A stretch of DNA of 64,000 nt from Leptogorgia sarmentosa. Its lineage: Eukaryota. This document shows, piece after piece, positions 5,201 through 54,327 of the stretch. Every line of letters starts with the position of its first letter. Positions within the stretch are counted from its first letter, which is position 1. The notes below the pieces were generated by a model that made no database searches, was not told where the DNA came from, and saw only the letters and a list, made by a program, of their open reading frames with translations. The DNA lies in the NCBI GenBank assembly GCA_964658305.1, contig OZ210885.1, positions 992,001 through 1,056,000 on the forward strand. Reading direction: 5' to 3'. A program made the translations under genes and the position numbers.

Positions 5201-8200
5201 TCACATTTTATTATTTTAAAGACGGCGCTGAGGTATTCTGGCATTCTGTGTTAAATAAACTGATTTACACATGAATCGCATGAGCTTAAATAAACATGTT
5301 AAACACATTTCGAGTGTTGTCCATAAATGTCATATAAACGCAGCCATCTTGCTATATTTAGCAGCAAAACAAACATTCAAGGCGCCAAATATATTTTACA
5401 TTCTCAAGAACGATTTTTTTTTCCGTTGCATTCAGGTTCTGAAAGATTAGGTTTAAAATTTCCACCTGACAGTTGAATTCGACAATGGGATCTTCATCAT
5501 TTAGTTGTGTCGAGGGAGATGCAAAAATCCTGAAATTTGTCCGGCTTAAATCGTCGTAAAACACAGGCATCGCATAATTTCATAACTTGCTTGATGCCTG
5601 GTCGATAATTTTACTTAGGGGCAGCTGTTCCATTGGTCCAAAGTTATATCAAATAGGGGGGGGGGATCCGATCAATTTGCAACTAAATATTTCATTACGA
5701 AAAGCGGCAAGAATTTGTTCTTGTTAGCAGCTGCAACAGGATACACGAGGGACTTTACTAGCCATTACCAGTACCACAAATGAGTAAAATTACGTTTGAT
5801 GTTCGTGCTATATATAGCAAGAAGAAATGAAATGTTTTTCATATACTTTTCCAAACATGTGATTGGAAATTGAGCATGGGAGAAAACTATTGATGGACAT
5901 GAATGCCAAGCTCCTTAGGGGTGTAGCTTGCGGCTTTGTGGGAGATGTTTTTTACATCATTTAGCACTCCCTGTTGACCAGCATGACCAGGAAGATAGCG
6001 TGCAAGTGTTGTTACTCTGAGCACGACAGTACAGCGAAATAGTTTATCACATGTAGGGTGCAATTACACTCAATATAAAGCATCAACACCCAATATAAGC
6101 AGTTAAGAACAAAATTATATGCACTGGCCATGGGCTTATACATAGGTCTTGCTGATCAATGTAGACCTTCAAAGATGCTGGAAGCGTGCCAGGATTATGT
6201 CGAAAGCTCGTGAATAAAAATCTATTTTTGACCAGAGAACGCATTATTATTTTTACAATAATTATATGCCTGTTCTCTAAATTCGAACGTTCTTCTTCGG
6301 GCTGAATAATCGTGGCTCATTCAGAGTTTATATTAACATCCATACAATTCAGTGTTAAGTTGATAACTTTTAAATAAGTTCTTAAATGGTCTCCTGAACT
6401 TCTTTACATTTAACCATCTTCCTTCCACTTTAAGTAGTGGACAAACTTGAATGGCTGTGGAAAGCGCCTTAATCTCAAACAGAATGAATGATCGATAAAA
6501 TATTAAAAGCAGAGTTTATGAAGCAGTACAAGCACTTCAATGAAATGAAATTCAGATATTTGTATTCATGCAGATAAATAATGGACAACATTGTTTTTGT
6601 TTTAGTTTTGCAGTGTCGTTGTAACGACGTAATAAATTTGAATCTTCAAACTGGGGTTGTCTCTGGTTCCAGTCCTTATGTAACCCTCCTCTCTGGTCCT
6701 TCCTCTGGGAGAGATAGCACAACGTGCGACAGTCAAGCGTTAGTGCGGATAGACTTTCGTGGCACGGACAATCCAGTGCGTTTCACGTTTCAGTACGGGG
6801 AAGATCCAATTGGCTGGACATTTGTGATCTCAGATTGTCCCAATGATTATGGTTTTGGCGGGAATTTTAATTATTCCAGCAACTGCGCATCCACCCAAAT
6901 GATCAACGGCCAATTACGTGTTTACAGTAGTCAACTTCCTGGTTATATTAAAGAAACTATTGATGGCAACAATCTTATGAAGGTAGTTCACTCGACTATA
7001 TAAAGGTCGGTTTCCACGATAATAAGCATGGATGGGATACGACAGAAACAAAATTGAACCCCGAATAGGCTTTCAGTGCCAATTTTCTGTTTCAGTTTGA
7101 ACCTGTCGGATCCTACGATAAAGAGTTGAAGTAGCTATTTATTCACCAGCGGAGTGGATAATTTGATAGTAGAAAAGAGTCCAGTCCTATCCGATCCGAT
7201 GCTTATTTCCCCGAGCGGAAATTGGCCATGAGGTCCAAATTCAATGAACCCTTTGTCCTATCCGAAACCTGAAATTAAGATTTTAAAAGATCAAATCAAT
7301 CTAAGAAAACATTTTCTTAAAGCTGAAAACGAGGATGAGAGTGCACGAGAGTTGTCAGACACGCACCTTGACGGGCGGTGGCTTAATAATGCTTTACAAA
7401 CACCATCATGTTCATCTATAAACATAGTTCGAATTAATCTATATGAAATGCAAAAGGCATCTTGAAATGTTCCCATTGACAATTCGTGACTGCCAACTCT
7501 CACCATCCTCGTTTGACCCGTGCTCAGTTGATGTAAATGAGAATTCCATTCACTCACTCCGTATTTCATCTGTAGTTTTCATTTTGTTTAGGTGGTGGAC
7601 AGAATGGTGAAGAATGGTGCTAGTCTTGACGTCAAAGTTGGAGATGGTTTCTTATCTTTGAACAACACACACAGGATCCGTAATTCCTATCTCTATGCAT
7701 TAGACGGACAATGGACAACTTATGGTCCTGTGGAAAAATATTTGTACGTCGCGTTCAACCGTGTTCCTTATACCAACTTCAGATCTGGAAGTGGTCTTTG
7801 CAGTGTGCGGATACGGATGGAACGAAGTGCAGGTAAGAAAGTGACGATGTGTACCTATGTATAACCCGAACAGTAGTGCTTTATCAGATATGAAGGTTGG
7901 GGCGACAGTCGAGAGTTTTAGATCTGCCGTGTGTTTTAAATCACTAAAAATGTCCTATCTTGTGTGTTTATTGGTGAAGAAATTTTTTTAAAATTCCCTA
8001 AATTTTTTAAATTAAATAATTTTCGATTTTCGTCTTCAAAAAGACGAACGAAGTCTAAGCCGAGAAAGCCGAAGTCTATAAGCCGTTATTTTCACGAAAT
8101 GTGTGAAGAACATCGATGATAATAAGGACTGTTTATGTTAAATATAATATCCTGGTGACGTGAATGAGGAAACAATGTGAACATTGTTTGTCTTTGGTTC

Positions 8201-11200
8201 TCATTGTCATCATGTCAATTAGAAGTGGATATTATGAGAAACATTTAATAGCATTAGAGCCGGCCTTTTTAAAACTCTTTTCCTGTTTTTAAATGAACGA
8301 TGATAACAGCATTAAATCATTCAGCTAAGAGTATTTTCAACACCTGATTTCGAATATTCAGCAGCTAATGTTTTGAATCGCAAACGCGTGTAAACCGAAT
8401 CAGTTGGCTTTGAGTCCCCTGCTGCAATGATTTGTAGGTTATGCACTCGAGACGTCCGCCAAAACCCAGCCAAATTAGATTAATCCAATTGTGGGATGGT
8501 TCAGTGGCAGCATGAAATTGCTTTGTTCAATATCAATTTAAATGCAATGATTGCTGAAACCACAATTAATAGTTGAATCATGCTCACTAAAACCAGGCTA
8601 AAACCGGCTAAAACCCACGTTGATAAAAATCAAATCACTTCCTAACTCCTGGAATAGTTTTGATGACAGACTTGATTTCTAATCGGGGATTAGTAATGTC
8701 GGTACTTCACATTATTATCATCAAAGGGGTTTATCCCTTCCGCCATTCTAATAAGAACCGAATTTGGAATTACAGGAAAGGCGATTTTAAGCTAGCTTCA
8801 TGCCACACATTGGCCACTCAAACGATGGTCTGCATGTATGAAAAAGGTTTAGGAAACCTGTAAAACCATGAAAAAGGAAATGTTCTTTCGCTTTGTTCGT
8901 CTCCGATACAAACACGCAATGCCACGCACCACTAAAGTGATTCCGTCAGTGATTCCACGCACTGTAGCAACAACAGAAAATGTTTTGGAAATCTCCATGA
9001 GATTATTTCTCAACTGATAATAAAATACTATCATGTTGGGTGTGTAGTCAGTGCATGCTGTTTAAATATTACAGAAACACTTTACTTCATTTTTACGGCA
9101 CTGACAGATAACTCAATGTATAACACGTATCTTCACTACTGTGCATACTGTTTTCATGTTATGCCTTTTAAACATGTCTGTGCAATAATCGAGAACAGCT
9201 GAGAACATCTTAAGCTTGTATACATGTCTTTTTTCTTGCCCTTCAAATGATGAACAATACCACCAAATATGGTAATATTTCGATCTATCACGACATTAAT
9301 CTTGTATGTTGTATAGGCATGCAGTCTTAGTAACATCGCAAGGTCACGACTTATTGAAAAAATGGACATTTGCCACACGGACGTGGTTGTTGTGCTAAAG
9401 AGCATCTTTAATAAATACTACGTGTTGCAAAATCGTTAAAACATTTTCAAATGTACACTACAAGCCAGCACACTATCAATTTTTCTTCCTATTCTTATGT
9501 GTCCTGATTTATCTGCTATTTTACTACAATCATTATCATAAAATCTGGACTATAAACATTTGAACGTGAATATTTTATATCAATGTGCACAGTTTTATTA
9601 ATGAGTTTAACAGGAGAATGAAAATCAGACCATTGTCTTTAAATTTCTTCGTTGTTTTTTTCATGATCATGTAGCAGAGGAACTATTTTTATTTTGCACA
9701 GCAGGAAAAACGTGGGTGTAAAAATGCATTTGAGACACTCCAAGTACTTTTCACAGGAATCTAATAACATAAATGGACTCCAGACTGTTCGAGTGTTAAT
9801 CACAGTTAATGCCACTTTTTTATTCATTCCTTTTTCGTCATCACCGCCCCTCTCCCTTCAATTATGACACCGGAGATACTTTCCTAATCTCAACTCTCAA
9901 CAGCATTCCAAGAGGTTGCAGAACCATTTTATCTTCTAGAAAACCTACTTTTTGTCTGTCTCTTATAGTATGTTGTGTGTCTATTAGTAAAAATGGAAGT
10001 TTAATAATGAGTTATTGGATATTTTCCTTAATTTAATTTTCTGCCAAGCGCTAGAATTAATTATTTCAATAGGCATTGAAAACACACTTACAGCATCTCT
10101 TTTCTGCATTGCATATTCCATCCATAATTGTTTCAAAGTACAGCAAAAGTTCCTCTCACTACCATCGATACAAGAAAAACGCTAATTTCAGAATTATTGC
10201 AAAATGTCGGTACTTACTGTATCATTTACTTACACTCGCCGTCGCCACATTTTAAAGTGTTCATGTGAATTTTTGATAGTTGATGCTTGCACTGAAAGAA
10301 ATAAGCCATGTGGCAGCAATGCTGTATGTGTCAAAGGAAAGAGAGATTTGCACGTTTGTGCATGTCAAGATGGGTATAACAAAATTGGAGGAAATTGCCA
10401 AGGTAAGACGGCACAAACTGTTAATGGGTGTCATGCATAAATTGTAAAACAGCGCAAACGCTATCAAGTTTTATTCTAATTTAACATCCATTCCACCAAG
10501 TGTATCCTGCCAAATAAATTATAAAAAACAACCCCAGGGATTAGGGAGTTTCCTCATGGATTCATTTCACTTAGTATAAATTGTAATTACATTTATTGGC
10601 ATCTTCCTATAAGATTTTATTAAAAATTTTCCTAAATTTGATGCATACAGTGTATTTTTTATGCGTACAAATAATTTTTACGAGCGTAGTAAATACTGTA
10701 GGATGAGTTTGTCTTTGACTTGTCAGCAACAGTCATGATTATTCGTGATGCTTTGTTTCCCCAGATATTGACGAATGTTTGCAAGATAACGGTGGCTGTG
10801 CGCAGCTCTGCACTAACTTGCCAGGAAGTTATGAGTGCAGTTGCAATACTCGTGGCTACAGACTTCATGCGGATAAACATCAGTGCATTGGTACGTAAGA
10901 TACAAATCCTAATTTCCATCGTCCACAGTCAGCTACTTCATGATAAATGTTTTCCCCATTTCAAGTTATACTTTCTATATCCTTCTTAATCTTTTCTGTT
11001 TCATGAACGACTACTGTATCATATGGTTGTTACAGCCTGGTTCAAACTCGCATTTCATCGGCGATCTATTTCCGTTTCTTTGTTACAGATAAAGCATTTT
11101 TAAATGCATCAACGATGAAAATTGCCGATTCTTGCGTCTAGTGAGAACCAGGCTCATCTGCAATTACTATCGCTGTAATCGACCATGATGAAAAAGATAG

Positions 11201-13989
11201 CGGCATGTCGATCGTAAAAACAGTTTGCGAACTTAAATCGGCTTTCGTTTGATAATATTAAGCGTTCATATCCACCTCTGACCACTGTAACTCGAAAAAG
11301 ACGTCGACATATGATCGATTTCGCCATGCTCTTTGACGAACAAAAAGATGTAGCCAAACCTGGAGAAATTCATATAGCGCGTTAAATATCTTTCAACTGT
11401 TATCATGACTCATTAAAATTCGCAAAGAACTTTTTTTGAGGACGACATGTCGCCATTTTAAAAATTGGCGAATTTTTATCAGGCATTCCCAGTAAGAATC
11501 TCGACATCTCTCACTTCCACTCCGACACTATAACGACACATTCAAACTTCCCTTCACCAAAACTATGTGCAAGATTACATTCCTAATCCAATTTCTTCCG
11601 TTAGACGAAAATGACATTGATACAATCACAAGAAAAATTAGACTGAGGATTCAAGTGAAGCAGTGCAAGACCAATGCAAGAATTGTGTCAAACTTCAGAC
11701 GAGATCTTCGTCTACTGATCTCTAAAGATATCTGTAGTGCTCCCTGTGAAATTCACGCAGTCACCCTGAAGTGTCGGACAAGAAGAAAGATAAACATTCT
11801 GCACACAAATCTGGATATAAGAATGAACCCCAATTTGATTTTCTCGCGAGCTCAGTGTAATTCATCGTGCATTAAATGTGAAGCGGAGAGCAAATTACAG
11901 AAGACAGTCACAAATTTGAGGCGTTTGGTCAATTCAGATAAATTCGTGCTGTCTTTTGATGGTCAGAGATATGTCCTGGATAGAAAAGATGTTAAAGGTG
12001 TGAGAACAAAAAGCCGATGTAAAAAGGCACCAAGGAGAAACGGTAAAACTTTTTTTATTTCATGCACTGAAAGCTGTACTTATTTCTCAAAATACGTTAT
12101 ATTTTGTTTCTCAACCAGCGAAGAATAAAAGCATCGATCATGATTTTATATTTTGACAAGCAAAGTCACGAGTAACCGTTTCACATTTAACTGATAAAAG
12201 CCAAAAATACTAGTTCGAAAACGAGATTTGGAATATTCAGAAATTTTAATCGTGACAGGAATTCAAAAACTAATCATGTTGTATAATTATATGTTTTGCG
12301 CATTGTAATCCTGGCAAAATGAAACTGGAGGTTATATCGTATAATGAGTGATGTACAATCATTTTCGATTGTTGCATGCTTAGACAAACGGTTCCGTTGA
12401 TTTCGAGTTTTTAAACTTTGATCCCTCTGAACTCTTCTGTATTTTAATTTATGTTCAAAAGTGAACATAGCTAAGTCCATAACGCTCACCAGGGATGAAC
12501 GTAGAACTGCAATGTCAGTCTAAATGAGGCTTTTAGTAACCGACAAACTCGGCCATCATTCAAAAAGAAGATCTATATATGAGTAAGCTACATTCCTCAC
12601 TCTATCTTAATTTTTACTGACCTGATTGCAGGCTCATGTCGACGTGGTAGTTACTATGACGTAGTATCGAATCAATGTTTGAAGTGTCCACGTGGTACAT
12701 ATCAAAATCAAGATTCTGAGAAATTCTGCTATCGTTGCCCTGGCAATACGACAACGCTTGAAACAGGCGCAAAGAGTAAGGCAAAATGCATAGGTGAGCT
12801 TTTTACTAATATTGCATGAATTTGGACGGAGATCAAAGCAAACAAAAAATGTCAAAAAAATCATCTCTTTTTTGAATATGATTTCATTTCCATTTGTCAT
12901 GTAGATATTTTAGTTTTTCAAACATTTATTCATTCTTGGTAATACTGTCGCCTAGCTGTTCTTCCTAGTAGCGAGCAGCACAAAATGCATTTGAATTCTC
13001 TTTTTGTCTAGAAACCATTTGTGGTTGGTCAATGAAAAATGCGGAGTCTGGTTTCATCTACACTCCCAACTTTCCTGATCCTTATCCCCCCGGCATAACA
13101 TGTGAGTGGCAGATCGATACTCTTGAAAATCACACCGCTTTCTTCCTTATACCAAGGCTTTCGTTACCGCTGACAACGCCCTGTTCAGACTATTTGGTGA
13201 TACGAGAAAATTCTAGTCCTTATTCCGTTCATTCATATCTAACATGTGAAAGCAATCCTGACCCGATAGTCATCGTGGCGAGAACCAAGAAACTTTATAT
13301 CAAGTTTCACTCAAGCAGTTTACAAAATGCTAACGGATTCAAGATGCGTTTTGCTACGTATAAAGGTAAAATAATCCTTGAACGGAAACATTTATAATTA
13401 GGCTACATGCGAATCTAAAATTGCATTTTTATTCGACACAAACATGTTTTTTCTTCAAAGATGAAAATTGTACAACGTCGCTATTTTAAACAAGTTATTG
13501 GCGGGAAATTATGACCTGACCGATAATTTTCACTAGCATGAAGATATGGAAAATTTCTCATTGAGTAATTTTCGGTATCTACTATATAACTTCAAATTTC
13601 CATTGAAGATTTGGTAAAAGACCTGGTCGAAGACATAATCCAAGATGGGAACATGTATAATAAGAAGAGTCATAGGGAACTGTTGCAGGTAACATTTTTT
13701 CCTGATTTGCAAATATTTTTGGGTTCAAAGACCGTGAAAGTAATCCGGAAATTTTTGAATTTTTGCAGTAAAATCAATTAGCCAATTATTTACATTTGTT
13801 TTATCATGATGAGCTCTTTATCATTTTATCTCATAGAATGAAGACACCACTGCAGATCTTTTCGCCGTACTAGGAGATCCGCTCAGCTTTCCATCTTACT
13901 ACACAGATGAATATCTTTCAAAGTTACCGTCATCGTTTATCAAATTTATCAGCAACAAAGTATCCAAGTACTTTTTCAGCCGGAAATAG
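2223..13989 (+). CDS. SCUBE: SCUBE-like secreted protein (signal peptide, unassigned N-terminal domain, EGF, cbEGF, spacer, one Cys-rich GCC2/GCC3 repeat, CUB, SCUBE C-terminal helix), ~701 aa, 10 exons
   Basis: join(2223-2274,6606-6982,7592-7832,10280-10402,10765-10890,11605-12042,12632-12793,13012-13365,13609-13688,13837-13989). All introns are GT-AG, phases are consistent, total 2106 nt. cb[30 protein letters not shown]; ephrin-receptor-like CPRGTYQ...[20 protein letters not shown]...[17 protein letters not shown]. Tail [12 protein letters not shown]...LFAVL...[16 protein letters not shown] matches the vertebrate SCUBE tail (LIEDIVRDGRLY...FPRSFIRLLRSKVSRF). Exon 1 is the least certain. 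Confidence 0.88.
7004..7228. mobile_element. Intronic MITE, PIF/Harbinger-like (degenerate TIRs)
   Basis: GGTCGGTTTCCAC...GCGGAAATTGGCC termini with internal inverted segments (ATAAGCATGGATGGGATA / TATCCGATCCGATGCTTAT). Confidence 0.4.
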
Positions 13990-16050: not shown

Positions 16051-16206
16051 AGTATCACCCGTTTCAGTGCCTTCGACATGGAACCGATGTCCATCCATAA
16101 CAATATCTCCAGTAAACTTGTGTGGGGCTGGGTGTACCACTTTGGTAGGGTGGGGTTTCGGCTTGAAGAATGTTGAATCAGTAGGGGCATGTGCCGGTGG
16201 GGTGAT
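16051..16206 (-). pseudogene. Duplicated fragment of the sulfatase-like gene exon 8 (copy of 17896-18060)
   Basis: Reads [52 protein letters not shown], then VIV*. It has a 9-bp in-frame deletion relative to the gene. An in-frame stop lies about a dozen codons upstream, and no phase-matching acceptor was found. Confidence 0.85.
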
Positions 16207-17113
16207 ATTATATCTTTCGTTATTCCGTATGAAACTAGTTTAAATTTTGTAGTTATGTTCGGTTATGAGAGCTATAGCACTGACAAAAATATGGAATTAT
16301 ATTACGGGAGATATTCTGTTGATCCAATCGGAAAATGGATTTTCTATCTGATAGCTAGTCGCAGTCCTTTTCCGTGTATTGAGATACCTGGAAGCAAATT
16401 CGTGCAATTTGATTGGCTTCTGACGAGGTAGAATTTTTCAAAAATTACTTGAGTAAATCAACACGGGTTCAACACGATTCGTAACACGTGAAAAGTTTTG
16501 CAGTGATTTTGCAGAAGCTTTTCAACTTTTGGATATCAACGCTTCGGGGGATACGAATTCTGGTTCCAGGCTTCGAGGGGTAAATCTCGTATACCCCTCA
16601 GATTTTCGGAATAAGTGTTTGTATTCTAGCACGTATCAATAGCATTAAAACAACACTTTTAAATTAATTTTATGGCCGAACAATTTCTCTTTTATTTGAA
16701 GAAATTTATCAATCGCTATTTTTACAAACAATCAAGGACCAAAATAATTATATTTTCCTTCCTATTTCAGTTAAGTTCATGAGTTTAACATGCCAAACTA
16801 CAAAAATAGAAAGTTTTCCAATTCGTATAAAGATGATGTCATCCTACCATCATATTTTTTTATTTCTCCTTTTTTCTGCTACTTCAAACTTAAACTGTAA
16901 TAAAACTGGTAGTACCCTCCGTTTTTCTGTTTGTACGGAGTATAGCTGCAAATGTGATGAGGTAGGTACACTAGTTGTTCCCATCTTCCAAGATCATTCT
17001 TTGAATAATATATAAGTTTCACCTGAACAGTGGAAGTGGAAATTCCCTATACCTATTCTTTGAACCCTACAAATTTTCTGACTAGTTCTAAGAGTTTCTT
17101 GACGAACCCTGAT

Positions 17114-20100
17114 CTACGATGCTCCTCCGGCATTAAGATTTTTTGCTCGCTGGAAATGTCTTGCGACTACCGCAATCATTGCAACTAGCGCCACCCCAAC
17201 GACCATTGCCGAAGCAATCACGACGATTACGACAGACGAAACGACAACAGCGTTATCTGAAGACTCCAGTTGAACTGGTTTCTCACAGTTTGTGTCATTC
17301 TGTTTCGTGATGTTACCACTGTTTACATTTTGATGTGACGTCACCGGTATATTCTTTGTTGGGCTATCAAATTCAGCAGCATCCTTTAACAATTTTCCGA
17401 CATTTTCTGACTTTTCAAGATTTCTTTCTGATCCCTTCTTTGATTTAGCCGGTTTATTTGCCTTTGGAGACTCGACAATGATATCGGTTACTTCACTATA
17501 ATCCGTCGAATCCACGGAAGCGACATTTTTGTCGACTGGTGTATCTTTCGGTTTTGAGACACTTGATTTTGGTGATGGAGTGGAGACACCTGGGTAGTTG
17601 GATGGATTATTATTCACTTCTAGAGAGTTGAAAAACATGAAGTTAGTATTTAGGGTATCGGCCAAAAGATGAAAAAAATCAGTAAACTGAAAGACTAATT
17701 AAATGTATAGTATACAATTAAAATTTATAATACTAATGCCATATTTTAAACGTTGAGATAGAAAATATGAAAATGAGTTTCATTTTCAAGTGCTACTTTC
17801 AAGTTTATTATTATTTATTAAGGATATAATGTCTTCCCCCTCCGCCAAATCTAAAGCAATTTCCTACCTGGGCCAAAATCTTTCATAAGCCAGTTAGTAT
17901 CACCCGTTTCAGTGCCTTCAACATGGAACCGATGTCCATCCATGACAATATCTCCAGTAAACTTGTGTGGTGCGGGGTGTACCACTTTGGTAGGGTGGGG
18001 TTTTGGCTTGAAGAATGTTGAAAGAGGTGAAGCAGGAGGGGCATGTGCCGGTGGGGTGATCTTCGGAGCTGGCGCTGGTTTCGAAGGGATTTTGGTTTCA
18101 GGTTTTTTCGGCTTCTTCAAAGTTGCCGATCCTGTATCGTGTTGATTGCTAGTTGCTTTTGTCTTCTCTTTATTTACATCGATGACATCGTAAATATTAT
18201 GGATAACGGGAATTTCTTTCGGTGCTTGACTTGCTGGTGGGTTGTCTGTCTCGTCAATGACGTCATACACTTGAGGGAGGTCAATTTTAATTTCATCCGA
18301 ATGTAATTTAGTTCCGAGGTTCGTTTCCCCTGTCGGAGTCTTTTTGTTATTTCTGCCACTGATTACTTCACCGAGAGACACTGGTTTGAATGGTTTGGAA
18401 GGCGGCTTGGTGGGGGACAGGTATTCTGATGTGGGCGAGATGACAGGTTCTTTACCGCTTCCAGCATCCTCCATTAGTACGTTCTGGATATCGATAACTG
18501 GAGGTTCAGTGGGTTTTACGCGCATAAAGCTGCTTTCGGTTGTAGGTTGTGTAAACGGAGCTGCAGTGGTCGGAGCTAACGGATTTATCTGTGGTTCAAT
18601 TAAGTTTCCAATGCCTTCTATTACAACGCTAGGTTCGACTTTCTGTACACTTGGAGAGGAGATGTTGTATGTCTGGTGTTTAGTTGTAGGCGGTGGTGGT
18701 GCCTTGTGGATGGGCGGTGGTACTGCTGTGTGATTTGCAAGAAGGTGCTTGTGGTTTTTGTGATGTTTGGTGATGTTTGCAAATTTCTTCGCTTTCTCTT
18801 TAAAGATTTTTTCATTATCAAGAGGAGTATATGGGGCACTACTACCTCCGTGATCGTTCATTTTAAGGTCAGCCATTGGATCCGGGTACACAAACTGCGA
18901 ATTCGTCGGTGGCATGTGAGGGTCATCACGCCAAAATGTCCAGCTACCGTCATGCATGTCGGGACGGGAAGAATTGTCCGAGTCTGGGTAGATTGGAGCT
19001 TTTGAAGCATTTGCAAAATGATAGAAGCGTTCTAACATAACTTTCATCGTATTTGGCATTATTTCAGCGATGTTATGGTATTCGCACGGATCCCATTTGA
19101 TGTTAAACAGACAAGGTCGTTCACGTGGTTTACATACTGGTGCATGAGTGAATAACAAAGGATGTGGTTCGCGAATGGTACAGTCCACTGTAGTACCTTT
19201 GGGGAATATAAAAAAATGTTTGTTATACACAATAATAACCGTTCACAATTTTAAGGATGGCACAATCAGCTCTGTTGACAAAAAAATTTCACGAAGTTTG
19301 AACGAATCTGGTAACACAACCTCTGCATAAAATATTCACTGAACTGCCAGTTCCTTGCTATTCAAGATTTACACACATTTAAAATTCAATTAAAACGTTG
19401 TACTCTACATATATTAATCTACTTTTTCACGAAGTACTCTTTCTTATTAGTTTTACCTTCAATGAGTTGCCTTCTTTTCCGTTTACTCATGCCTTTGGGT
19501 ATTGGAACTCCGGGTCTGGGATACCAATCCCCATAATAATTATCATCCTGGTTCACAATGAGTTTGTAGTCACCAACACGAAGAGCTCCGGACATTTCCG
19601 AGAAGGTGTCCACACCATGCAAAACTTCAAAACGAGGCGATGGTTCGGAATTTGAAATGGTTTCCCAAATGTTATAGCCGTCAATCTTTCCCAGAGTCTG
19701 AATGTTACCACCACCTGCAGCGTACAACGTTGGCAGCCAGTCTGTGGCATGAACAAGTTCCTCACAAATACGACCTAAAGCGGAGTACACTTGTACATTA
19801 GCACAAATCAGATTAAAAATAGCATTGTTTTATTGCAACTGCAATAGCTAATTCAAAATACACATTCTTTGACTAAATATTTTGATGAACGAGCTTTCGA
19901 CTACCTAACTGTAGCCTTTGACGGGTTAAAGCGGAGCAAGTTATTTACGATCTGACCGTCATATTTGTTTGCATAATAATTGCAGACACAGTTATTACGT
20001 AATTGCCGATGTGCAGTTACATGCTAACAATAAGGTGGCCAAATAAATTCACTTTATTTTTTTCACTGAATGAGACCTCTCGATATAATGTGTTAACACA

Positions 20101-22854
20101 CAGAGGAGTACAAATTTCTCTAAGCTGTTCTGGTTGAGATTGTTAAGTTTAGTTTATTAGTGCCATACTAACCTTTCTTTTTCAGCAGAGGACTGTAAAC
20201 AAAACCCACACCACGTACACCCCCTTCCCAAAAAGTGTTCTTGCCCCCTCTTAGTGGATAATTGGAACCAGCACTGTTGTCATATCCACCGGCAGCTCCG
20301 CCATTATCCGTTGTAAAGATAATGATTGTATTCTTCATCATTCCTTTCGCAGTCAAGGCATCTGTTAGTTCTTTTAGAGATTCATCTAATGTTGCTACCA
20401 TTCCTAAAACCAGAAAAAAATATCGTTCAAGTGACAAGAACTGAACCACAAACAAATTAGCATGGACCTCAGTAATGATTTCACCGTTTGCATACATTTA
20501 TGATAATGATATAGTTTTTAATACAAAAGATTCAGTCAAGAACTAATAATGCTATATGTTATGATACAAATTGCATTAAGAAATAAAAACCTGCAAATTT
20601 CCTTCTTGATAAATCTTTTATTCCAGCAAACTGTTTTACATATTTCTCTGGGACTTGTAAAGGATCATCTCCATTGCCAACATGTACTGCTTGATGAGCC
20701 AGATACAAAAACAATGGCTTTTTGTTGTCGTATTTATTGATGATGGTTGTCGCTTCTTTCGTGAAAAGTTCCGTACTATATTTGCCGCTTTCATTGTACA
20801 CCAACTGAAGCAAGAGAAAAACCCATTGGAATATCTTTGAGCAAAGCTACCGTTGAATGGTAGTAATAGAACTGTATATTCTTTCACCGATAAATGGATG
20901 TTCAAAAAAAACGGAATTGTCCCGTTCATCTGTGTTGCATTACGTCTTAAGCGCTTAATTTTGCTGGGGCAGGCATAAATAAATATAGCTATACTATTTA
21001 AAAAACGAGCAATCTAATCAGGGATGTTTTATGTGGGTTTAAAAAATAACAGAAAGACAGAAATACCAGACATGACCTACATTTTTTTCTTAATTAAAAA
21101 AAACTTTTTGTCCTTTTTGAGGGAAAACGAAATTCATCAAAACAAAATTCTTCTGAACAAAATATACTGCAAGTTTCTGAAAACACCCAAAACTTGCGAT
21201 AATTACGAACACTGAATTAGCAATAATAAATCAATTAGAAGCCAATTGTATTTTGTTATAATTATTTAGATATTTGTTATATTTATCTAGGATACAGAGT
21301 ATAATCGAATCAAAAAGTACCTGTAAATCTCTCCTCAGATCTAATCCATACCCATTATCATAGGAAACATGGGAATAATAATCTTCTGTATCCGTCCAAA
21401 AGCCAAAATATGAATCAAAACCGCGATATGTTGGCGTGTATTCTTTCGCGAAAAATCCCAAATGCCACTAAAGTTCACAAGGATAACGAACTTGTTAATA
21501 ACATAGTTAAGAGTATTGTTTTTTCTTTTGGGCCATGATCTGGCTGATGTGACCGTGAGGAATTAGGCGTGAAACATGCAACGCAATAGAAACCATTTTT
21601 TTTTATGAATTTATTTCCCTTTATGAAATCTGTTAAATGTTTAGTGAAGAAAAATGACAAATCTAGCTACCAGAAATTTGAAAACAAAATAAGTGAATAT
21701 AATTCAGTAGTTTGGATCGGAAAATGGATTTTTATTCGACAAGTAATTTCATAATAATTGTATACCTTTCCAACACCATGGGAGCTGTATCCTAATTCTC
21801 GTAACCGATTTGGTAACAACGATTCAGCCAGTGGTAAACCACTCGGCTGTTGATTATGAAAATCATCGTGTTGTAAACCTGAAAAGAAAAGATTGCAAAT
21901 CAGGAGTAATTAACTATTACGTTGAAATTGTTGAAGTCATGAATCAAAAGTGATTGTTGGAACAACTCTTAATAGATATACAATAACAAAACGTGCTAAA
22001 CATATAATATCGATTATCCATGCATACGAATCGAAAGCTTGAGAAAGTATCACTTGCCATGCAAACGAGTAATGAACTTATTATTAAGATATTTATATAT
22101 ATTATCTTATCGTATCAGCTGGTTACGAAAATATGTAGTTATATAAATGTGATGTGACGATGTCGTTGACTTACCAAGATGGCTGGCATATTTTCCAGTC
22201 ATAAAAGCTGCTCTACTCGGCGTAGACAAAGGTGAAACGTAATAATTATTGAGGACAACTCCATCCTTCGCAAGGCGGTCCAACGTTGGTGTTGGAATCT
22301 GATTTGAGCCATGAAAACTAACATCATCCCATCCCTAGATAAAGAAAAAGAAAATGGAAGATTTCGGAAAAACTAAACATGCATAGCATGGTTTGTCGAA
22401 TTAACACAGGAAATATTAATGAAGCAAGGATTTCTACAAGTCTTGCAAGATTGAGAGACTTCGGTATTGTTTGCTATTCTAAAAACTTGGATTCCGTTAT
22501 AGGCGGCCAGGTCGTGACTATCTCTCAGTTTGCTCCCAAGAGTTTGAGTTCGTTATTTATCTTCTGTTCCAACTTTGACCGGTAATATTAAAAATTTTTC
22601 TCATATGCATTTTGTCCCCACCTCCTTCCCCCGACAAATTAGTTTTTTGCTAGAACAGTCAAGTTGACAGCCAATAAAGGAGTTTAGCCCATTGATCTGC
22701 ATCTTGTTCCTTCCCCTCTATACTTACGAATAAATATTCTTACCAGGTCATCGGCAACGACCATAATAATATGAGGTTTTGTATATGCAGGTAGAACAGG
22801 AGACACTAAAACGAGACTTATAAAGCAGACAACCAAAGCCATCTTGGCTACCAT
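17114..22854 (-). CDS. Arylsulfatase B/I/J-family protein with Ser in place of the catalytic Cys, a long low-complexity stalk and a C-terminal transmembrane helix, ~1042 aa, 9 coding exons
   Basis: complement(join(17114-17619,17868-19196,19457-19774,20173-20403,20591-20804,21321-21467,21766-21878,22175-22334,22744-22854)). GT-AG introns, consistent phases, 3129 nt. Signal peptide [23 protein letters not shown]. Motifs [121 protein letters not shown]. Confidence 0.9.
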
Positions 22855-25561
22855 ATCGCCTGTGAAAGGAAGAAAACAACAGTTATGATAATACCCGTGC
22901 ACACAGGGCGAAATCGACTAATTGAAAGGCTAACAAATTCGGTCGTATATACTCATGCAGAATGAATATGAATTGTTTTAATCTGCCCTCCTTGTTTGCT
23001 TCATTTTGCCATTAACCATTGCCTCCAAATGGACAGTATTTTCATTCTGGAGATTACTTTCAGATAATGATTTGGAAGGACAGGAAGTACGGGAAATAGA
23101 AGATGAAGCGTACAAAATACATCAAACGTTGACCAGTTTAATTTTTGACTATCTTATATGGAGTGGAAAAGAAATGCATGAATTAAGCGGACAGTTTTAA
23201 AGGATTATGGATGCCCAGTACGACGGAGGTACATCAAGACGCGGTATTGTATATTTGCAGGAGTACATTGTGATATACAGGCTTTATAATACATGCAGGA
23301 CAAGTAACACTTAGTTGTAACACTTTTCTAGTTGTTCCCCCTGCATTGCAACGTGTCCGCTAAAACAATGTCTAATTCTTATCGAAAATTAACGTAATTT
23401 TGGCAAGAAGTTTATATGTTTACTTCTTTTACTTAAAATGTACGATTAAAACGATAAAAACAACAATTTTTCCCGCCTTGGAGATTTGTAAGCATCGTTT
23501 TGGCAAAATTCCTTTGTTGCCAGTATTAATAATTAACGACTTCGAGTCTTCGTTATTTACATTAAAATGTACACTATACAGTTACTACAATTGTTGGATG
23601 TAGAAAATTCCAAACAGAAATTCAGATTAATAAAATGTATAGAATCAAGTGAAATAGTTGTTGAAATGTATCCGTGCAAAATTATTTTTAAGTTCTTTTA
23701 CAGGTGCCTTAACTTTGATTTATATATATACGAAACTATTAGAGTCAAAACGTACAAGTTTGGCACGGTTTTTTATTGTCTCGGTATATATTTAAACTGT
23801 AGGATAAAAGCTTTTAAAATCACACTAAAAATTGCAAGCAAAGTTGCGACCACTGTATTATAATAATGATAATCATAGGCTTTTACAGTCAAGACAATGT
23901 AATTCAATAAATATGCAAATTGTAAGCGAAATGATATAATTGCATAGACAGTTACCTCGGAATTTATTTGTCATCATTGCTTAATCGCTGTGGAATTCAA
24001 GTTTTCATATTTTTCTGATGAGTAATGGTTTAGTCATCTGTCACCGAGTCTTCACGCTCCTGTGGTCTCGAGGTTTATGAAGCTATATCGTATGCAAAGA
24101 TCAACGTTGTGCAATGGAGTCAGTGAATTGGCAGGTGACCGGCTTGTGCGCTTGTCACATGAGCAGGTAGCGTTTAACGCTGCTGGATTTTACACAAAAT
24201 ATACCAACTCAACCGTAACTTGCTCAAAGTTTCAAAATAAACACAAAGAATTAAAAAAAATATGACAAATTTTTACTTTTTAACCAAATTCAATGGAATT
24301 TTAAGCCAGTGTTGACTATTAAAGCTACAGAATAATCCTGAGTATTTTTCAAAATTTATGTCAGCAAAATACATGTCCCGTGTGTTACCGGCTATAAACT
24401 AGATTTCGGCGTAAATTAGTTCTTCACTTGAACTTATATACATATTGACTTATTTATAGCGTAAATTTGGAAAGTAGATAGTTTTGTTGTTGAAACTGTA
24501 GGTATGTAAAATTATTCACTTATTTTTCTATATGCATGGGCTTCAAACGAACAAGGAACAGTTTAAGTATATCCGAACACAAATTCTAATGCAATAAGCT
24601 GTTATTTTGTGTGAAACATGCTTCGAAGATCGACGACTTAATACAAACTCAAGCCAAAATTGATTGTAGGAAATTTATCAATGGTAAAGGTATGCATGTA
24701 AAAGGTAATATCAGACGTTCATCCACAGCAGGTCACAATTTTAAGAATATTTTTATTTTCATCTGGGGCAGCCATCAAATTACAGGACAAGTTCAAAACA
24801 TGTACAATTTGGCGGGAAAATATGTCAGTTCCTTTGCGAACTTTTGTGATGACTTTTCTTCAAATCACTCCCGAAATAATTTCATTTCTAAATGAAATAC
24901 GCTGTTAATATTTCTTGCTTGAGTGGTTTGACCAGCACAAAGACAAATGTTTCTTGGTAAAAGGAAGTCATCAAGCGTGGAATTGTGTCAATACTTCTGT
25001 GGCTTGTTACCCGTCGTCGAACCAGCGCTCTCCACTAGAGCGTGGAGTATCTGCGCTAAAACCGAAGCAAACCAAGCATAGCAAAAAATTGAATCAGTGA
25101 ACAAAGAGAATATGGCATCATCTAAAAAACTACTCACTTGGTCCTTATTCAATTCTTTCGACACTTAAACGAATATAAACCTCTTATAACCGCATATGAA
25201 AGTGATAGCCTTACAGCCCTTACTACACGTACACATGTGTGAAACTACTTCGTGCAGGTTGCGGATAATAGCAGCAAAACGCAATAAAGATTATATTCAC
25301 GATAATAACTAAACGATAAAACAGATTCAACGTACCGTTTCGAACGAGCATATTTCGTTAACTGTCGTTAACGTCGCGGGCGACAAAGGCTGGTTCCCTC
25401 GAAACCGTAAAATCTGAGGCGGGGGGTGGGGGTGGGGGGGGGGGGATGTCAAATTATGCAATTCACGTTGAATTTCTTTCCTCAGTAATGCAACCTAATA
25501 GTTTTAGGTTGAACTACATCGGGCAGAAAAATACCAATCATTGATATGGGAACGCGTGTTC

Positions 25562-25999: not shown

Positions 26000-26501
26000 T
26001 GTTCAGGTTATTCGCCCTTTAGTAAAAATCCAGTTTAGGATAAGTGAGTGGTTAACTGCTTGGGAATTTATATCCGATCTGGATCCCTGGGATGGATATT
26101 TCCCATTATTTCTTTGCTCCAGTCAGCTACATCTTTGAAGCTTAGTGGCTATAGTAGTTCACCTGGATCGCACAGGCTCAGGTTCAACTCCTTCCCAACC
26201 ATTGCTGGCTGGAACCTCCAGAAAATTTACCCTAGTTCACCACTGCAAGTTAGACCAAACATTGAATCGAAATGAAAACCTTTTCTCAGAGTGTCCATTG
26301 TTTTAGTACTTTATAAAATTATTCATTGGTGACCCTAACTTTCGGGGAGATTCCAGTCTTTACAATTTTGTTTTCATGAGTATTAATTTTTGTAGAACGT
26401 TGCCAGAGATTTGCCAGGCGGCAAACGAATTCGTATGATAAATGTGAGAGCCCAACATATAACTTTTAACTTTGTTAATTTTTGTAGAACGTAGCAGAAT
26501 A

Positions 26502-39469: not shown

Positions 39470-42076
39470 CAGTGCTTCCATTTTGAAGGAAATTTCCTTT
39501 TGAAAGGATTTTTTGGCAAAATGAAGGAAATAAAAAGGAAATAATTTTTGAAGGAAATTTGAAGGAAATTCTAGAAAAATAAAGGAAAGTTGAAGGAAAA
39601 TACAAAAATATCTTAAAATTAGTTAAATTTTGGAAATAAAGTCACAGAATATATATCATACAGAGATGTAACTGTGATAAAGTGTAGAATATGTATCAAT
39701 CCGATTCGCGGAAGCAGAGTAACCAGTAACCACTAACCAGACAGGCAGCCGCATAAGTCATAACCGCATTCTTTCTACAGTATAATATTAATACTCTTAG
39801 CTTCAGGTTGCTTTCATATTCGAATTTCATATATATGCTAAAAGAGATTTGACATTCTAATCTCCGAACTTAAAGCTCTTGTACAGTCAAAAATGTTTTA
39901 AAACTTTCCGTTCCTTCATATTATTTTCTATTAACCATTTTCCAAAATTAACTGATAGACAGTCACAGTTTTGATTGCAAAATAGGTTTTTCTAAATCAT
40001 TCAAATTTCAAAGCAAAATAGACAATTCGTAAATTAAAAAAGGAACGTTCAAAAGACAAACGCGAAGAACTTAGAGCCATTATCCATTCTGCCTACGAAA
40101 TGTGGCATTTCTGAAATTTTTCTTACGATGACATGTCATATGTAGCTACAAAACCTTGATCGATGTATTAGTTCCTAATTTCTTCATATTTGTCACTAAA
40201 CATTGGTTAAAATTGGCTGTAAGTAGTGTATAATTGCTGCCGAGCGTAGCGAGGCAGCACACTATTCTTGACACGCGGTGGTTTCCCCAGAGTCTACTCG
40301 ACCCAGTCTTTCGCGCGAGTTATGTATTGCCGAGATCGAGATCTTGTGTCTGTCTGTCTGTCTGTCCCATTGAACTATATATAACTGGAAGGCTACCTTC
40401 ATATAAACGGGAACGAAAAAAATGAAGCCAAAATTTTGCGTGGAATTACCCCCAGACACGCGTGTCTGGGGGTAATTTCACGCGAGTTCAGCTGCGTGAC
40501 ATTCTCGCGCGGTAGAAAGGAGCGAACAAGTCAACAACATGTTTTCAAAAGAGAACGTAGGAATTTGCGATGCGATAGAGAAGTGATTTTGCTGTTTTTT
40601 TACTGTTTCAAAGCCATTTCTTGTGCTATGAATACAGAAAAATTAAATTTTATGGCGATCAAATGAATTTCTGTAAGGGAAACTCGCCGAAAACAAACGA
40701 TTGTGTCTCGATTAAAACGGATCTGAAATGCTTGACATTGATTCGAAAGCTGGCTACAAATGGAATCACAACAGATTTTAGTCTATGACTATGTCATGGT
40801 CGCCTGTGGGCGAACAATTTTTGAAAAATGTCAAGAATAAACGAAAAATGACAGCCCGGCATAGCAAAAGTGGCAAAACCTCAAAAGGCCACTTATCGCC
40901 GTTCGGGTTTTTATTATGAAAACCAAACATTCACCAAATTTATGTTAATATAAATGATTCACATCCTCCGAAAACTATTTTTTGCGAATTTTGTACAAGT
41001 TTTTTCAACAAAAAACAGAAATGTTTTTGTTTTGGCCGTGTCTACATTACGTGGAAAGACTGGGGCCGATTTGGCTTCAAGTTTTCGGCCGGAAGTAGCC
41101 TTCCAGTTTTATTTAGTTCAATGGTCTGTCCATAAAGATGTTTGTCGTATCCGGGGGCATAATTAAGCTTCAGGGACGTTTGTTAAAAGAGGGGAGCGGT
41201 CAGAATAATTAAGCTTCAAGGACGTAAACAAGATATTGTATTGCGCACGCGGCACGCATCTCCATGTGCGTCAAGAATCGAAAGGTTTTTACAAAAGCGT
41301 TTCATACGGATGCAAGATTGTGCTAATGTTTTATGCGTTGTGGTTGGCCCAGGTTGGGTAATTTGGTATTTATGGCGATCACACATCAATGATGCAAGCA
41401 ATGTTCAGAATGCTAGCCCTAATAGACTGTTAGGGTTAGTGTTTACTATGCTATTACTAATAGTATAGTAAACACTAACCCTAACAGTAAACCTTCACCC
41501 TAACTGGCGTGCTGTTGCTTTTCAAAGAACGGGACATAAACACAATATGCGCACTGAATCGCATTTTTAATTATTATGTTGAGCTTGCGATTAAATAACG
41601 AGATATAAACGTGGTAAACTTAATCGGTAATAATTTTCACTTCGTATGATCGTACACGAAGAACGAAGGCTGTCACACGCTGCTTTCTGAATACTCGGGT
41701 ATATCACATTTCACTTCGTGTCATCGTATTACGAAAAAATGTATCTTGCCCAGGCTTTTTAAAAACTCGGATACATTACATTACGTGATCATTTTGACTT
41801 CGTATCATCGTATCATGATAACAAGTCACTGTTTCAAAAGTGGACAGGTATTCTATAACCCAGCCGGGATTTTAAAGTTTGAGCGCAACGGCAGCACATT
41901 TCCTTGCGATAGTAACTCCTAGTTTATAGTAAATTACACACTTTCTTCGATGAGAGTTTGTTGAGCACTGATTTCGAGAGGGAAATTTGGAGGAATTTTT
42001 GATATTTTTTGAAGGAAATTCCAGTCAAAAAAAGGAAAAAATAAGGAAATTACCAAGTTCGGAAATGGAAGCACTG
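39470..42076. mobile_element. Non-autonomous hAT-superfamily DNA transposon (2607 bp including the nested insert)
   Basis: Perfect 14-bp TIRs CAGTGCTTCCATTT / AAATGGAAGCACTG. 8-bp TSD TTCAGGAC (39462-39469, 42077-42084). The empty site GACATTCAGGACACTC is seen in the sister repeat units. Clustered subterminal GAAGGAAA motifs. No transposase ORF. Confidence 0.93.
40232..41923 (+). mobile_element. Helentron-associated/DINE-1-like non-autonomous rolling-circle element nested in the hAT
   Basis: 5' hairpin TGCTGCC-GAGCGTAGCGA-GGCAGCA (40235-40259), (GTCT)n at 40347-40366, 3' subterminal inverted repeat CGGCAGCA (41889-41896), end CTAGT. Internal palindromes at 40439-40482 and 41429-41484. Confidence 0.72.
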
Positions 42077-43440: not shown

Positions 43441-43668
43441 TAATAATGATGAACAAGTACAGAGAAAAGAAAGTTCATTAACGAAGACCAATGGCGGTGC
43501 CAAATGCATCTGTCCAACGATCACTAGAGGTGTATGTTCCACAACCTCCGAAATGCATCTCGGTAAGAAACAGGAAGTTGTTAGGAAGCTGACGATGACC
43601 ATACGAGGGTACGCCGGTTTTTCGCCAGTTTACTGCTACACCACGTCTCTCATAAACCAGGCTCCAAT
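43441..43668 (-). pseudogene. Third, 5'-truncated copy of the last exon of the fibrinogen-like paralogs
   Basis: Near-identical to 44773-44980 and to the reverse complement of ~59925-60150. It lacks the 5' part of the exon and the splice acceptor, and abuts the end of the 602-bp array. Confidence 0.85.
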
Positions 43669-51360: not shown

Positions 51361-51885
51361 TTGCAAATGGGAATATTGCTGAAGGAAGATTATTACCAGT
51401 TAATTTCCGCAATAAAGTAAACGGATAATTATAGAATTCCCCGTCCCCGCCAACTTGGACATTGTATTTTTACATGAAAAGGCATAGTTTATACGTCGCT
51501 CTTATACCAAATCGTCGTGTCAAATGCAATTCAGACAATAGATAATGAAGTAAGACATCTCATGATGTATTGTTTGAGTTGCATTTGACGCGACGAAAGT
51601 TCGACATAAGAGTGACGTGGACGTCTAAACTGGGCCTCAGACTTTTGTTGAAACTTAAAGTGCAATAATGAAACCTTACCCAAACCCTTACTCTAACCCT
51701 AACATGACTGGGAATGAAGCAATTTTACTTGATGATTTTGAAATTCATTTGACATATTTGGCCTAATTAATATGCAGTAGTCCTTAACGGCGGGGTATCC
51801 TATATGTACCAACTTTAAGTCCACTCGCGCACACAAACACCTTGAATGTCTTGGAGAACATCACGCCTACTTTTCTCAAATTGGC

Positions 51886-54295: not shown

Positions 54296-54327
54296 AGAGA
54301 GATATAGTGCAAAGTTGATAAGACGAA

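What the first reader, a model, noticed from the sequence alone, without database searches (positions are those of the whole stretch)
17114..19000. Sulfatase domain on a ~500-aa mucin-like stalk with a C-terminal TM helix (type I membrane protein)
Seen: after the normal ARSB-family end (DPCE...W..W), the frame continues through Pro/Thr/Lys/His-rich sequence ([19 protein letters not shown]). It then splices in phase (17868 to 17619) into an exon with a ~30-aa hydrophobic segment and a basic tail, [15 protein letters not shown]. Known: ARSB/I/J are soluble ~530-600-aa proteins, and steroid sulfatase is anchored by an internal helical hairpin, not a C-terminal stalk. Inference: a cell-surface-displayed sulfatase fold with a receptor- or adhesin-like layout.
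Basis: partly seen in the sequence, partly recalled or inferred. Interest (0 to 1): 0.75.

Follow-up and report, generated by a model that had tools for sequence, protein, structure and literature searches.

The report
Dead sulfatase tether of stinging cells
This soft-coral gene encodes a sulfatase-shaped head on a long stalk with a predicted membrane anchor, but the head lacks the cysteine that animal sulfatases need; it is likely the counterpart of a stinging-cell gene published as an enzyme, and likely works instead as a non-enzymatic sugar-binding tether while the stinging capsule is built.

Summary
A 9-exon, 1042-aa gene gives signal peptide, ARSB-like head, 475-aa stalk, 30-aa hydrophobic helix and 15-aa tail. 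Spliced contigs of 3 samples carry the 17868/17619 junction. (1) The formylglycine-precursor Cys is Ser here; 0 of 13 family rows have Cys (9 Asp, 4 Ser) against 53 of 56 other sulfatases, yet the head is under purifying selection. It is very likely a pseudo-enzyme. (2) The stalk exon holds an 18-nt perfect miR-2022 site (18146-18163), and published probes for the cnidocyte target NVE16448/Hys0052.52 read as this family. The family is one clade across octocorals, anemones, corals and hydrozoans, with a near-invariant TM helix. Three studies call it an arylsulfatase enzyme; the passages and searches seen mention neither the dead site nor the anchor. Best model: a membrane-anchored glycan-binding scaffold facing the lumen of the growing stinging capsule (0.5). 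C-terminally anchored and Ser-type sulfatases are each known from insects, so this is a new variant, not a new kind.

The parts
23956..24105 (-). Upstream first exon (5' end approximate); carries an in-frame ATG at 23977 that could add 9 residues
   Evidence: Loose ends of 113-149 letters at 22861 in X4-X6 match this place; donor GTAACT after 23956 and frame check
22744..22859 (-). Coding exon 1: ATG 22854, predicted signal peptide aa 1-22, DD metal ligands D35/D36
   Evidence: (hydropathy only), joint 22333/22743
22175..22334 (-). Exon 2 with sulfatase signature I
   Evidence: Pfam Sulfatase E 1.2e-10; covered by X4, X5, X6
22224..22226 (-). Ser74 codon TCT at the formylglycine position (Cys in active animal sulfatases)
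   Evidence: no other letter listed here in 3 of 3 runs; same Ser in P0011 and P0012
21766..21878 (-). Exon 3 (K128)
21321..21467 (-). Exon 4 (H130)
20591..20804 (-). Exon 5 (H218)
20173..20403 (-). Exon 6 (D281, N282, K303)
19457..19774 (-). Exon 7; includes a polybasic, furin-like loop KRKRR (aa 423-427, 19484-19470) seen in octocoral rows only
17868..19196 (-). Exon 8: end of sulfatase head (to about 18925) and first 350 aa of the stalk
18145..18163 (-). miR-2022 target site inside the coding sequence (pairs with miRNA nt 2-19; encodes K-T-K-A-T-S-N, aa 776-782)
   Evidence: one match, 1 mismatch of 19, chance mean 0.02 even at 3 mismatches; miRNA; frame
17902..17967 (-). Conserved beta-hairpin island in the stalk (aa 842-863)
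   Evidence: 38 of 38 family rows; folds as part of a small beta sheet, pLDDT 77-86, in a hexacoral-type fragment
17620..17867 (-). Last intron (248 nt, GT-AG, phase 1)
   Evidence: skipped in X4, X5, X6, present in DNA-like run X1
17114..17619 (-). Exon 9 coding part: rest of stalk, single Cys986 (17287-17285), TM and tail
17162..17251 (-). 30-residue Val/Ala-rich predicted transmembrane helix (aa 998-1027)
   Evidence: 100% identical to two other octocoral-type rows, 91% to hexacorals, 59-62% to hydrozoan-type rows
16664..17113 (-). 3' UTR; AATAAA at 16864 and 16696
   Evidence: contigs reach 16664-16691; signals

Best explanation
The gene encodes a spliced 1042-aa protein with a sulfatase-fold head lacking the catalytic cysteine, a long stalk and a predicted C-terminal membrane helix; it is likely the octocoral ortholog of the cnidocyte gene NVE16448, and likely acts not as an enzyme but as a membrane-anchored glycan-binding tether in the developing stinging capsule. 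Steps: SHOWN - transcript structure, Cys-to-Ser change, one cnidarian clade with Ser or Asp at that site, purifying selection on the head, near-invariant TM, miR-2022-complementary site. PUBLISHED for orthologs - expression in developing cnidocytes and cleavage by miR-2022 in Nematostella. INFERRED - the ER formylglycine-generating enzyme cannot convert Ser or Asp, so the head folds and binds but does not hydrolyse; the protein travels through the Golgi to the post-Golgi capsule vesicle with its head in the lumen; the ARSB-type pocket (ARSB acts on chondroitin 4-sulfate) binds the chondroitin layer that stabilises the growing tube, the stalk spans wall material, and the invariant helix fixes it in the membrane, probably through self-association or a partner; miR-2022 caps its dose. 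In hexacorals the Asp carboxylate would sit where the sulfate binds and could favour non-sulfated chondroitin (speculative).
For: Gene and junction. Nucleophile: 0 of 13 family rows Cys versus 53 of 56 comparison rows; further loss of H130 in 11 of 13 rows and of R78, D281, N282 in both hydrozoan-type rows. FGE acts on Cys; Ser conversion is bacterial (PMC3920027; PMC6823443); a Ser-form S1 sulfatase is inactive but binds substrate (bioRxiv 2020.12.01.406876); Cys-to-Ser substrate complexes are among the fold hits (6psm, 1e3c). Fold intact: 1FSU E 4.6e-52, TM 0.91 on the target. Selection: 12 of 12 SNPs in aa 26-522 synonymous, P about 1e-8 under neutrality. One clade, SH-aLRT 99, with hydrozoan/(octocoral/(anemone, coral)) branching. 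miR-2022 site; A[TA]S[KNS] island in 38 of 38 rows versus 0 of 332 control stalk windows. The Nve16448 probe reads by eye SPMDTPSR and GKWQLG, the Asp/Gln signature of the hexacoral branch; three Hys0052.52 probes read by eye as stalk motifs of the hydrozoan branch. Cnidocyte expression: PMC10548089, PMC12945647. Chondroitin matrix of the tube: PMC10014300, PMC9205923.
Against: No binding, activity or localisation data exist for any member. In the window protein the other 10 of 10 catalytic-site residues are intact, so a Ser-based reaction is not excluded. The capsule chondroitin is reported as non-sulfated, while ARSB recognises the 4-sulfate. A lectin role on the tube chondroitin has already been proposed for NOWA and nematogalectin. 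miR-2022 knock-down did not significantly change NVE16448 mRNA (log2FC -0.22, padj 0.29). Cnidocyte expression and the mature miRNA were not seen in this octocoral. Transcript support is assembled contigs from one study with no library record. The Hydractinia proteome is from sorted whole cells, so it does not separate capsule membrane from cell surface. Orthology to NVE16448 rests on probe fragments read by eye, not on a full sequence in the tree.
Confidence: 0.5

Rival explanations
1. Cell-surface adhesion molecule of developing cnidocytes (neuroligin-like): dead enzyme head on a stalk that binds sulfated glycans or a protein on neighbouring cells.
For: Type I layout; no conserved lysosomal sorting motif visible in the short tail; feature look-alikes of the C-terminal 170 aa are neurexin/syndecan-type stalks, scores 0.82-0.83, a lead only; the Hydractinia protein was found in sorted whole nematocytes.
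Against: Expression is in developing, capsule-building cells, alongside miR-2022 targets that are capsule parts such as nematogalectin-related NR2; tail lacks a conserved PDZ-type end.
Confidence: 0.2
2. Proteoglycan core or shed structural precursor: the stalk itself carries glycosaminoglycan chains on Ser-Gly sites and/or the head is cut off and built into the capsule wall, the pocket being irrelevant.
For: An acidic x-Gly-Ser-Gly motif in 33 of 33 anthozoan-type rows; furin-like KRKRR in octocoral rows; single juxtamembrane Cys in anthozoan rows.
Against: 0 of 5 hydrozoan-type rows match that motif; the window protein has one such site; the polybasic loop is absent from the hexacoral and hydrozoan rows read; pocket residues K128, H218, K303 are kept in 13, 12 and 13 of 13 rows.
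Confidence: 0.15
3. Active membrane-bound enzyme, either the chondroitin sulfatase proposed in the literature or a hydrolase/transferase using Ser or Asp as nucleophile, as in other alkaline-phosphatase-superfamily members (the latter from recalled knowledge).
For: All other catalytic-site residues intact in octocorals; active TM-anchored arylsulfatases exist in beetles; conserved Ser-type clade in beetles of unknown activity.
Against: Asp cannot become formylglycine; the nucleophile differs between lineages; hydrozoan-type rows lose R78, H130, D281 and N282; a His-to-Asn change at the H130-equivalent site abolished activity in a beetle enzyme.
Confidence: 0.12
4. Artefact or decaying gene: the TM exon belongs to another transcript, or the Ser codon is a sequencing error or private null allele.
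For: Only contigs, no long reads; read-through at 17868 would stop at 17851.
Against: Single contigs join TM exon to exon 2 in X4 and X5; Ser unchanged in 3 of 3 runs and in P0011/P0012; 35 of 38 family rows end in the same helix, the other 3 stop at an earlier point.
Confidence: 0.02

Closest known systems
NVE16448 / Hys0052.52 / t19037aep, the conserved miR-2022 target 'arylsulfatase' of cnidocytes (PMC10548089; PMC12945647; bioRxiv 10.64898/2026.05.09.724056)
   Same: miR-2022 site, family-specific motifs in the published probes, pan-cnidarian range; most likely the same orthogroup.
   Different: Published as a putative enzyme; the passages read give no catalytic-site change, stalk or TM ('transmembrane' 0 hits in the main text of PMC10548089, its preprint and PMC12945647). 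'Octocoral' and 'Xenia' 0 hits in PMC10548089.
Human arylsulfatase B (N-acetylgalactosamine-4-sulfatase, PDB 1FSU)
   Same: Best sequence and fold match (E 2.7e-92; E 4.6e-52); metal ligands and Lys/His/Arg pocket kept in the window protein.
   Different: No precursor Cys; 475-aa stalk, TM and tail added.
Insect arylsulfatases with C-terminal TM (beetle Sulf4/GSS) and Ser/Gly-type Sulf2/SulfB clades (PMC6823443)
   Same: C-terminal anchor in one group, loss of Cys in another; P0055 and P0034 are such TM rows.
   Different: Anchored ones are active Cys enzymes of about 620 aa without a long stalk; the Ser-type PcSulf2 has no TM; TM rows sit on a separate branch, so the anchor is a separate gain.
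Pseudo-enzyme ectodomain proteins: neuroligins (dead cholinesterase fold) and PTPRZ1/PTPRG (dead carbonic anhydrase fold on a spacer); recalled, not from a call
   Same: Dead enzyme head, long stalk, single TM.
   Different: Different fold; no signalling or PDZ tail here.
RefSeq/GenBank models of the same family (XP_022790873.1, XP_020620538.1, XP_068675125.1, XP_065646618.1, LOC116286353)
   Same: Same architecture already present as sequence.
   Different: Named only 'uncharacterized protein' or 'serine-rich adhesin for platelets'; six such ids gave 0 papers.

Membership tests
Formylglycine-dependent (S1) sulfatases, ARSB type | Sulfatase fold and sequence family | tested here: met
   Pfam PF00884; 1FSU best by sequence and fold
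Formylglycine-dependent (S1) sulfatases, ARSB type | Cys in C-x-P-x-R, the only precursor converted in eukaryotes | tested here: not met
   Ser74; 0 of 13 family rows Cys
Formylglycine-dependent (S1) sulfatases, ARSB type | Metal ligands and catalytic Lys/His/Arg | tested here: met
   10 of 10 in the window protein; eroded in hexacoral and hydrozoan rows
Formylglycine-dependent (S1) sulfatases, ARSB type | Sulfate ester hydrolysis | not testable with these tools
   needs assay
Type I single-pass membrane protein | N-terminal signal peptide | tested here: inconclusive
   Hydrophobic N-terminus, KD 2.5; no SignalP available
Type I single-pass membrane protein | One C-terminal TM helix on the same transcript, basic residues after it | tested here: met
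miR-2022 target orthogroup (NVE16448) | Highly complementary miR-2022 site | tested here: met
miR-2022 target orthogroup (NVE16448) | Orthology to NVE16448/Hys0052.52 | tested here: met
   Probe fragments read by eye carry family-specific residues; family is one clade; full NVE16448 not in the tree
miR-2022 target orthogroup (NVE16448) | Cnidocyte expression and miRNA-guided cleavage in this species | not testable with these tools
   contigs only
Transmembrane mucins | PTS domain dominated by Ser/Thr, usually repeated | tested here: not met
   S+T 17%, P 14%, K 11%
Transmembrane proteoglycans | Ser-Gly attachment sites next to acidic residues | tested here: inconclusive
   33 of 33 anthozoan-type, 0 of 5 hydrozoan-type rows
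Cholinesterase-like adhesion molecules (neuroligins) | Alpha/beta-hydrolase head | tested here: not met
   head is a sulfatase fold; analogy of design only

The most novel reading that the evidence does not exclude
At the origin of Cnidaria a lysosomal-type chondroitin sulfatase was duplicated, lost its nucleophile, gained a stalk and an almost frozen transmembrane helix, and became the membrane receptor that couples the chondroitin sheath to the vesicle membrane during nematocyst tube formation; a microRNA site written into its coding sequence has fixed a peptide motif in an otherwise fast-evolving stalk ever since. It would be the first sulfatase-fold lectin-like membrane scaffold with a defined organelle role.
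Probability: 0.35. Interest if true: 0.85.

Novelty: new variant of a known kind. Interest (0 to 1): 0.7.

Why it matters
The stinging capsule is the defining organelle of cnidarians, and how its tube membrane is tied to the chondroitin and protein wall is open. One of the few deeply conserved miR-2022 targets has been read as an enzyme that might desulfate capsule chondroitin. Showing that it lacks the catalytic residue in every lineage sampled and carries a near-invariant membrane helix changes the hypothesis from enzyme to anchor, and it can be tested at once in Nematostella and Hydractinia, where probes and transgenic tools exist. It also adds the sulfatase fold to the list of enzymes recycled as dead ectodomains, and gives a case of a coding-sequence microRNA site shaping protein conservation.

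Tried and rejected
No genome is held for this window, so copy number and paralogs in this species were not checked. The look-up of sequencing runs listed no holder on record as RNA; the spliced nature of X4-X6 comes from their joints. No contig covered the last intron in X4-X6, which is no evidence against a soluble read-through form. Complex prediction (head homodimer) was not available, so dimerisation is untested. Pfam finds nothing for stalk or TM beyond a sub-threshold Rifin hit judged compositional. Atlas hits (neurexin/syndecan stalks) are under 0.9 and kept as a lead. Tyrosine-sulfation idea for the two YDVID motifs dropped: hexacorals have Leu/Phe there. GPI-anchor reading dropped: the helix is 30 aa, invariant and followed by a basic tail. 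Range outside Cnidaria: among 146 new rows of the profile search only 3 matched the family's C-terminal model, but only the best 150 were listed and most rows have no taxon, so remote relatives are not excluded. The careful tree did not finish; the quick tree was used, without bootstrap or a non-ARSB outgroup. The TM regex failed; the 35 of 38 count is read from the printed tails. Three look-ups of earlier findings gave nothing. PMC1171293 and PMC2919125 were not held; PMC7279497 and PMC12549020 gave nothing usable.

Full report
Observation. The window is animal DNA of about 36% GC. On the minus strand nine GT-AG exons (22854-22744, 22334-22175, 21878-21766, 21467-21321, 20804-20591, 20403-20173, 19774-19457, 19196-17868, 17619-17114) join to a 1042-aa frame without internal stop. 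Layout: hydrophobic N-terminus (aa 1-22), sulfatase head (about 26-522; Pfam hits on 4 of the 8 exon frames of this gene scanned), 475-aa stalk (P 14, K 11, S 9, T 8%), 30 apolar residues (998-1027) and a 15-aa tail. Six runs hold the stretch, none on record as RNA. Three of them (X4-X6, one study) are spliced: all carry the 17868/17619 joint, X4 and X5 show all 8 introns removed with one contig from exon 9 to at least exon 2, and run X1 is unspliced. These are assembled contigs, not long reads. An upstream exon ending at 23956 is indicated by loose ends.

The head lacks its nucleophile. Signature I reads SPLSTPSR: Ser74 (TCT, 22226-22224) stands where ARSB has the Cys that becomes formylglycine. 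No variant is listed there in 3 of 3 runs, and the nearest named relative, a Paramuricea clavata model 92.6% identical over 323 aa, has the same Ser, which places the window in Octocorallia by inference. In an alignment of 13 family rows and 56 other sulfatases the site is Asp in 9 and Ser in 4 family rows, Cys in 53 and Gly in 3 others. The 13 rows include near-copies; they stand for four lineages. The window protein keeps the other 10 site residues; hexacoral rows change H130 to Gln; the two hydrozoan-type rows also lose P76, R78, H130, D281 and N282. FGE acts on Cys and Ser conversion is a bacterial pathway (PMC3920027, passages; PMC6823443, passages). A Ser-form S1 sulfatase is inactive but binds its substrate (bioRxiv 2020.12.01.406876, passages). 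The fold is intact: an AlphaFold model of the Porites ortholog has 464 residues at pLDDT >= 90, a disordered stalk and a C-terminal helix, and matches 1FSU best (by sequence). The gene is not decaying: 12 of 12 SNPs in aa 26-522 are synonymous (P about 1e-8 if neutral), the stalk has 8 synonymous and 6 replacement SNPs and one 9-nt in-frame deletion; two further SNPs fall in codon 25 and one synonymous SNP in the TM.

A cnidarian family. Searches with exon 8, exon 2 and the TM region returned full-length relatives of 960-1640 aa from Actinia, Oculina, Porites, Hydra and unnamed assemblies, and cluster members from Pocillopora, Stylophora, Montipora and Orbicella, named 'uncharacterized'. The 13 rows form one branch, SH-aLRT 99, ordered hydrozoan-type/(octocoral/(anemone, corals)), sister to other sulfatases without a stalk-TM, most named ones cnidarian; insect TM-bearing rows lie elsewhere (quick tree). 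Against the window protein the TM region is 100% identical in two octocoral-type rows, 91% in three hexacorals and 59-62% in two hydrozoan-type rows, while the stalk is 15-47%. 35 of 38 family rows end in this helix plus 7-15 residues; 3 hydrozoan-type gene calls stop earlier. The stalk has conserved islands: a beta-hairpin (38 of 38 rows) that folds into a small sheet with no significant PDB match, and a single juxtamembrane Cys in anthozoan rows. A profile search of 1.84 billion representatives listed 150 rows; of 146 new ones 3 matched the C-terminal model. This suggests, but does not show, restriction to Cnidaria.

The microRNA link. A paper search led to PMC10548089 (section 11, passages, supplement 2 with long cells cut, rows of supplement 1), which reports a conserved, cnidocyte-specific miR-2022 target annotated as arylsulfatase (NVE16448, Hys0052.52, t19037aep). 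The first 19 nt of miR-2022 (mature form in PMC3962355, passages) match the window once, at 18145-18163, with only nt 1 differing; shuffles give a mean of 0.02 matches even at 3 mismatches. The site lies in exon 8 and encodes K-T-K-A-T-S-N; an A[TA]S[KNS] island sits 26-69 aa before the hairpin in 38 of 38 rows and in 0 of 332 control windows of the same stalks. Conserved cnidarian miRNA sites are mostly in coding regions (PMC7935066, passages). Read by eye, the Nve16448 probe encodes SPMDTPSR and GKWQLG, the Asp and Gln of the hexacoral branch, and three Hys0052.52 probes encode stalk motifs of the hydrozoan branch. So the published target is very likely this family and is itself Cys-less. 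NVE16448 is higher in Ncol3-positive cells in 3 of 4 pairs; its mRNA did not change significantly on miR-2022 knock-down (padj 0.29). HyS0052.52 protein was detected in sorted nematocytes and its gene marks developing clusters (PMC12945647, abstract, passages, one supplement row). An Acropora preprint (10.64898/2026.05.09.724056, passages) also calls it an arylsulfatase.

Mechanism. The capsule forms in a post-Golgi compartment whose tube elongation is stabilised by a chondroitin matrix (PMC10014300 and PMC9205923, passages; the original study was not held). A type I protein there would hold its head in the lumen. I infer a dead ARSB-type pocket that binds this glycan layer, a flexible spacer, and an invariant helix that fixes or clusters the protein in the tube membrane, with miR-2022 limiting dose. 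My odds by step: real type I protein 0.95, ortholog of NVE16448 0.93, no sulfatase activity 0.88, glycan tether in the capsule 0.5 overall. Rivals are surface adhesion (0.2), proteoglycan or shed structural precursor (0.15), an active enzyme (0.12) and artefact (0.02).

Comparison and novelty. It works like dead-enzyme ectodomain proteins such as neuroligin or PTPRZ1 (recalled), but is not a member. It belongs to the S1 sulfatase fold family but fails the Cys test, so it should not be filed as an active arylsulfatase. Each ingredient has precedent in insects: active C-terminally anchored arylsulfatases and Ser/Gly-type clades (PMC6823443). The combination with a long stalk, an invariant helix and a cnidocyte microRNA site was not found in print by ten searches of the held library; four papers name the gene ids, and 'transmembrane' has 0 hits in three of them (the Acropora preprint was not searched for that word). 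Subscription papers, Figure 4C and two large PDFs of PMC10548089 were not seen. Verdict: real, the gene is known but apparently misread; new variant of a known kind; interest 0.7.

Noticed in passing
window 16051-16209: A 168-column, 90% identical copy of the 3' part of exon 8 (17896-18063, the beta-hairpin region) lies 0.9 kb downstream of the stop on the same strand, next to a multi-copy repeat (about 16207-16600); it is present in DNA-like run X1, so not an assembly slip.
   Followed up: partly
P0064 (Xenia), P0074, P0119; P0247, P0256 and others: Other Cys-less sulfatase-fold proteins: Gly at the site in a soluble octocoral pair near this family and in a moth row; Asp, Ser or Gly motifs in several unnamed representatives (9 Gly, 2 Ser, 1 Asp motif hits among 146 rows). 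Pseudo-sulfatases seem to arise repeatedly.
   Followed up: no
window 6578-13700 (+): Exons of a SCUBE/CEGP-like gene: Ephrin_rec_like at 12583-12816 and CUB at 12972-13394, convergent with the sulfatase-like gene.
   Followed up: no
window 26463-28191 (+): Small Macro-domain gene (PF01661), divergent from the sulfatase-like gene.
   Followed up: no
window 30667-30963 (-): Last exon of a flavin-containing monooxygenase (PF00743).
   Followed up: no
window 43400-46350 and 58857-61470: Inverted gene duplication, 91-100% alike in its longest pieces, plus a third partial copy at 43443-43667; no Pfam hit for the one exon tested.
   Followed up: no
window 51850-54310: Near-perfect 18-bp tandem array of about 130 copies with long open frames on both strands, probably satellite DNA.
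   Followed up: no
window 38672-43390: Several dispersed copies of a roughly 300-nt element in both orientations (repeated ORF text).
   Followed up: no
P0012: The Paramuricea clavata model is mis-joined: after aa 354 it runs into reverse-transcriptase-like sequence (PF00078) and lacks stalk and TM.
   Followed up: partly
P0003, P0005: In these rows the stalk contains a long charged, coiled-coil-like repeat instead of Pro/Thr-rich sequence, so stalk length rather than sequence seems to matter.
   Followed up: no
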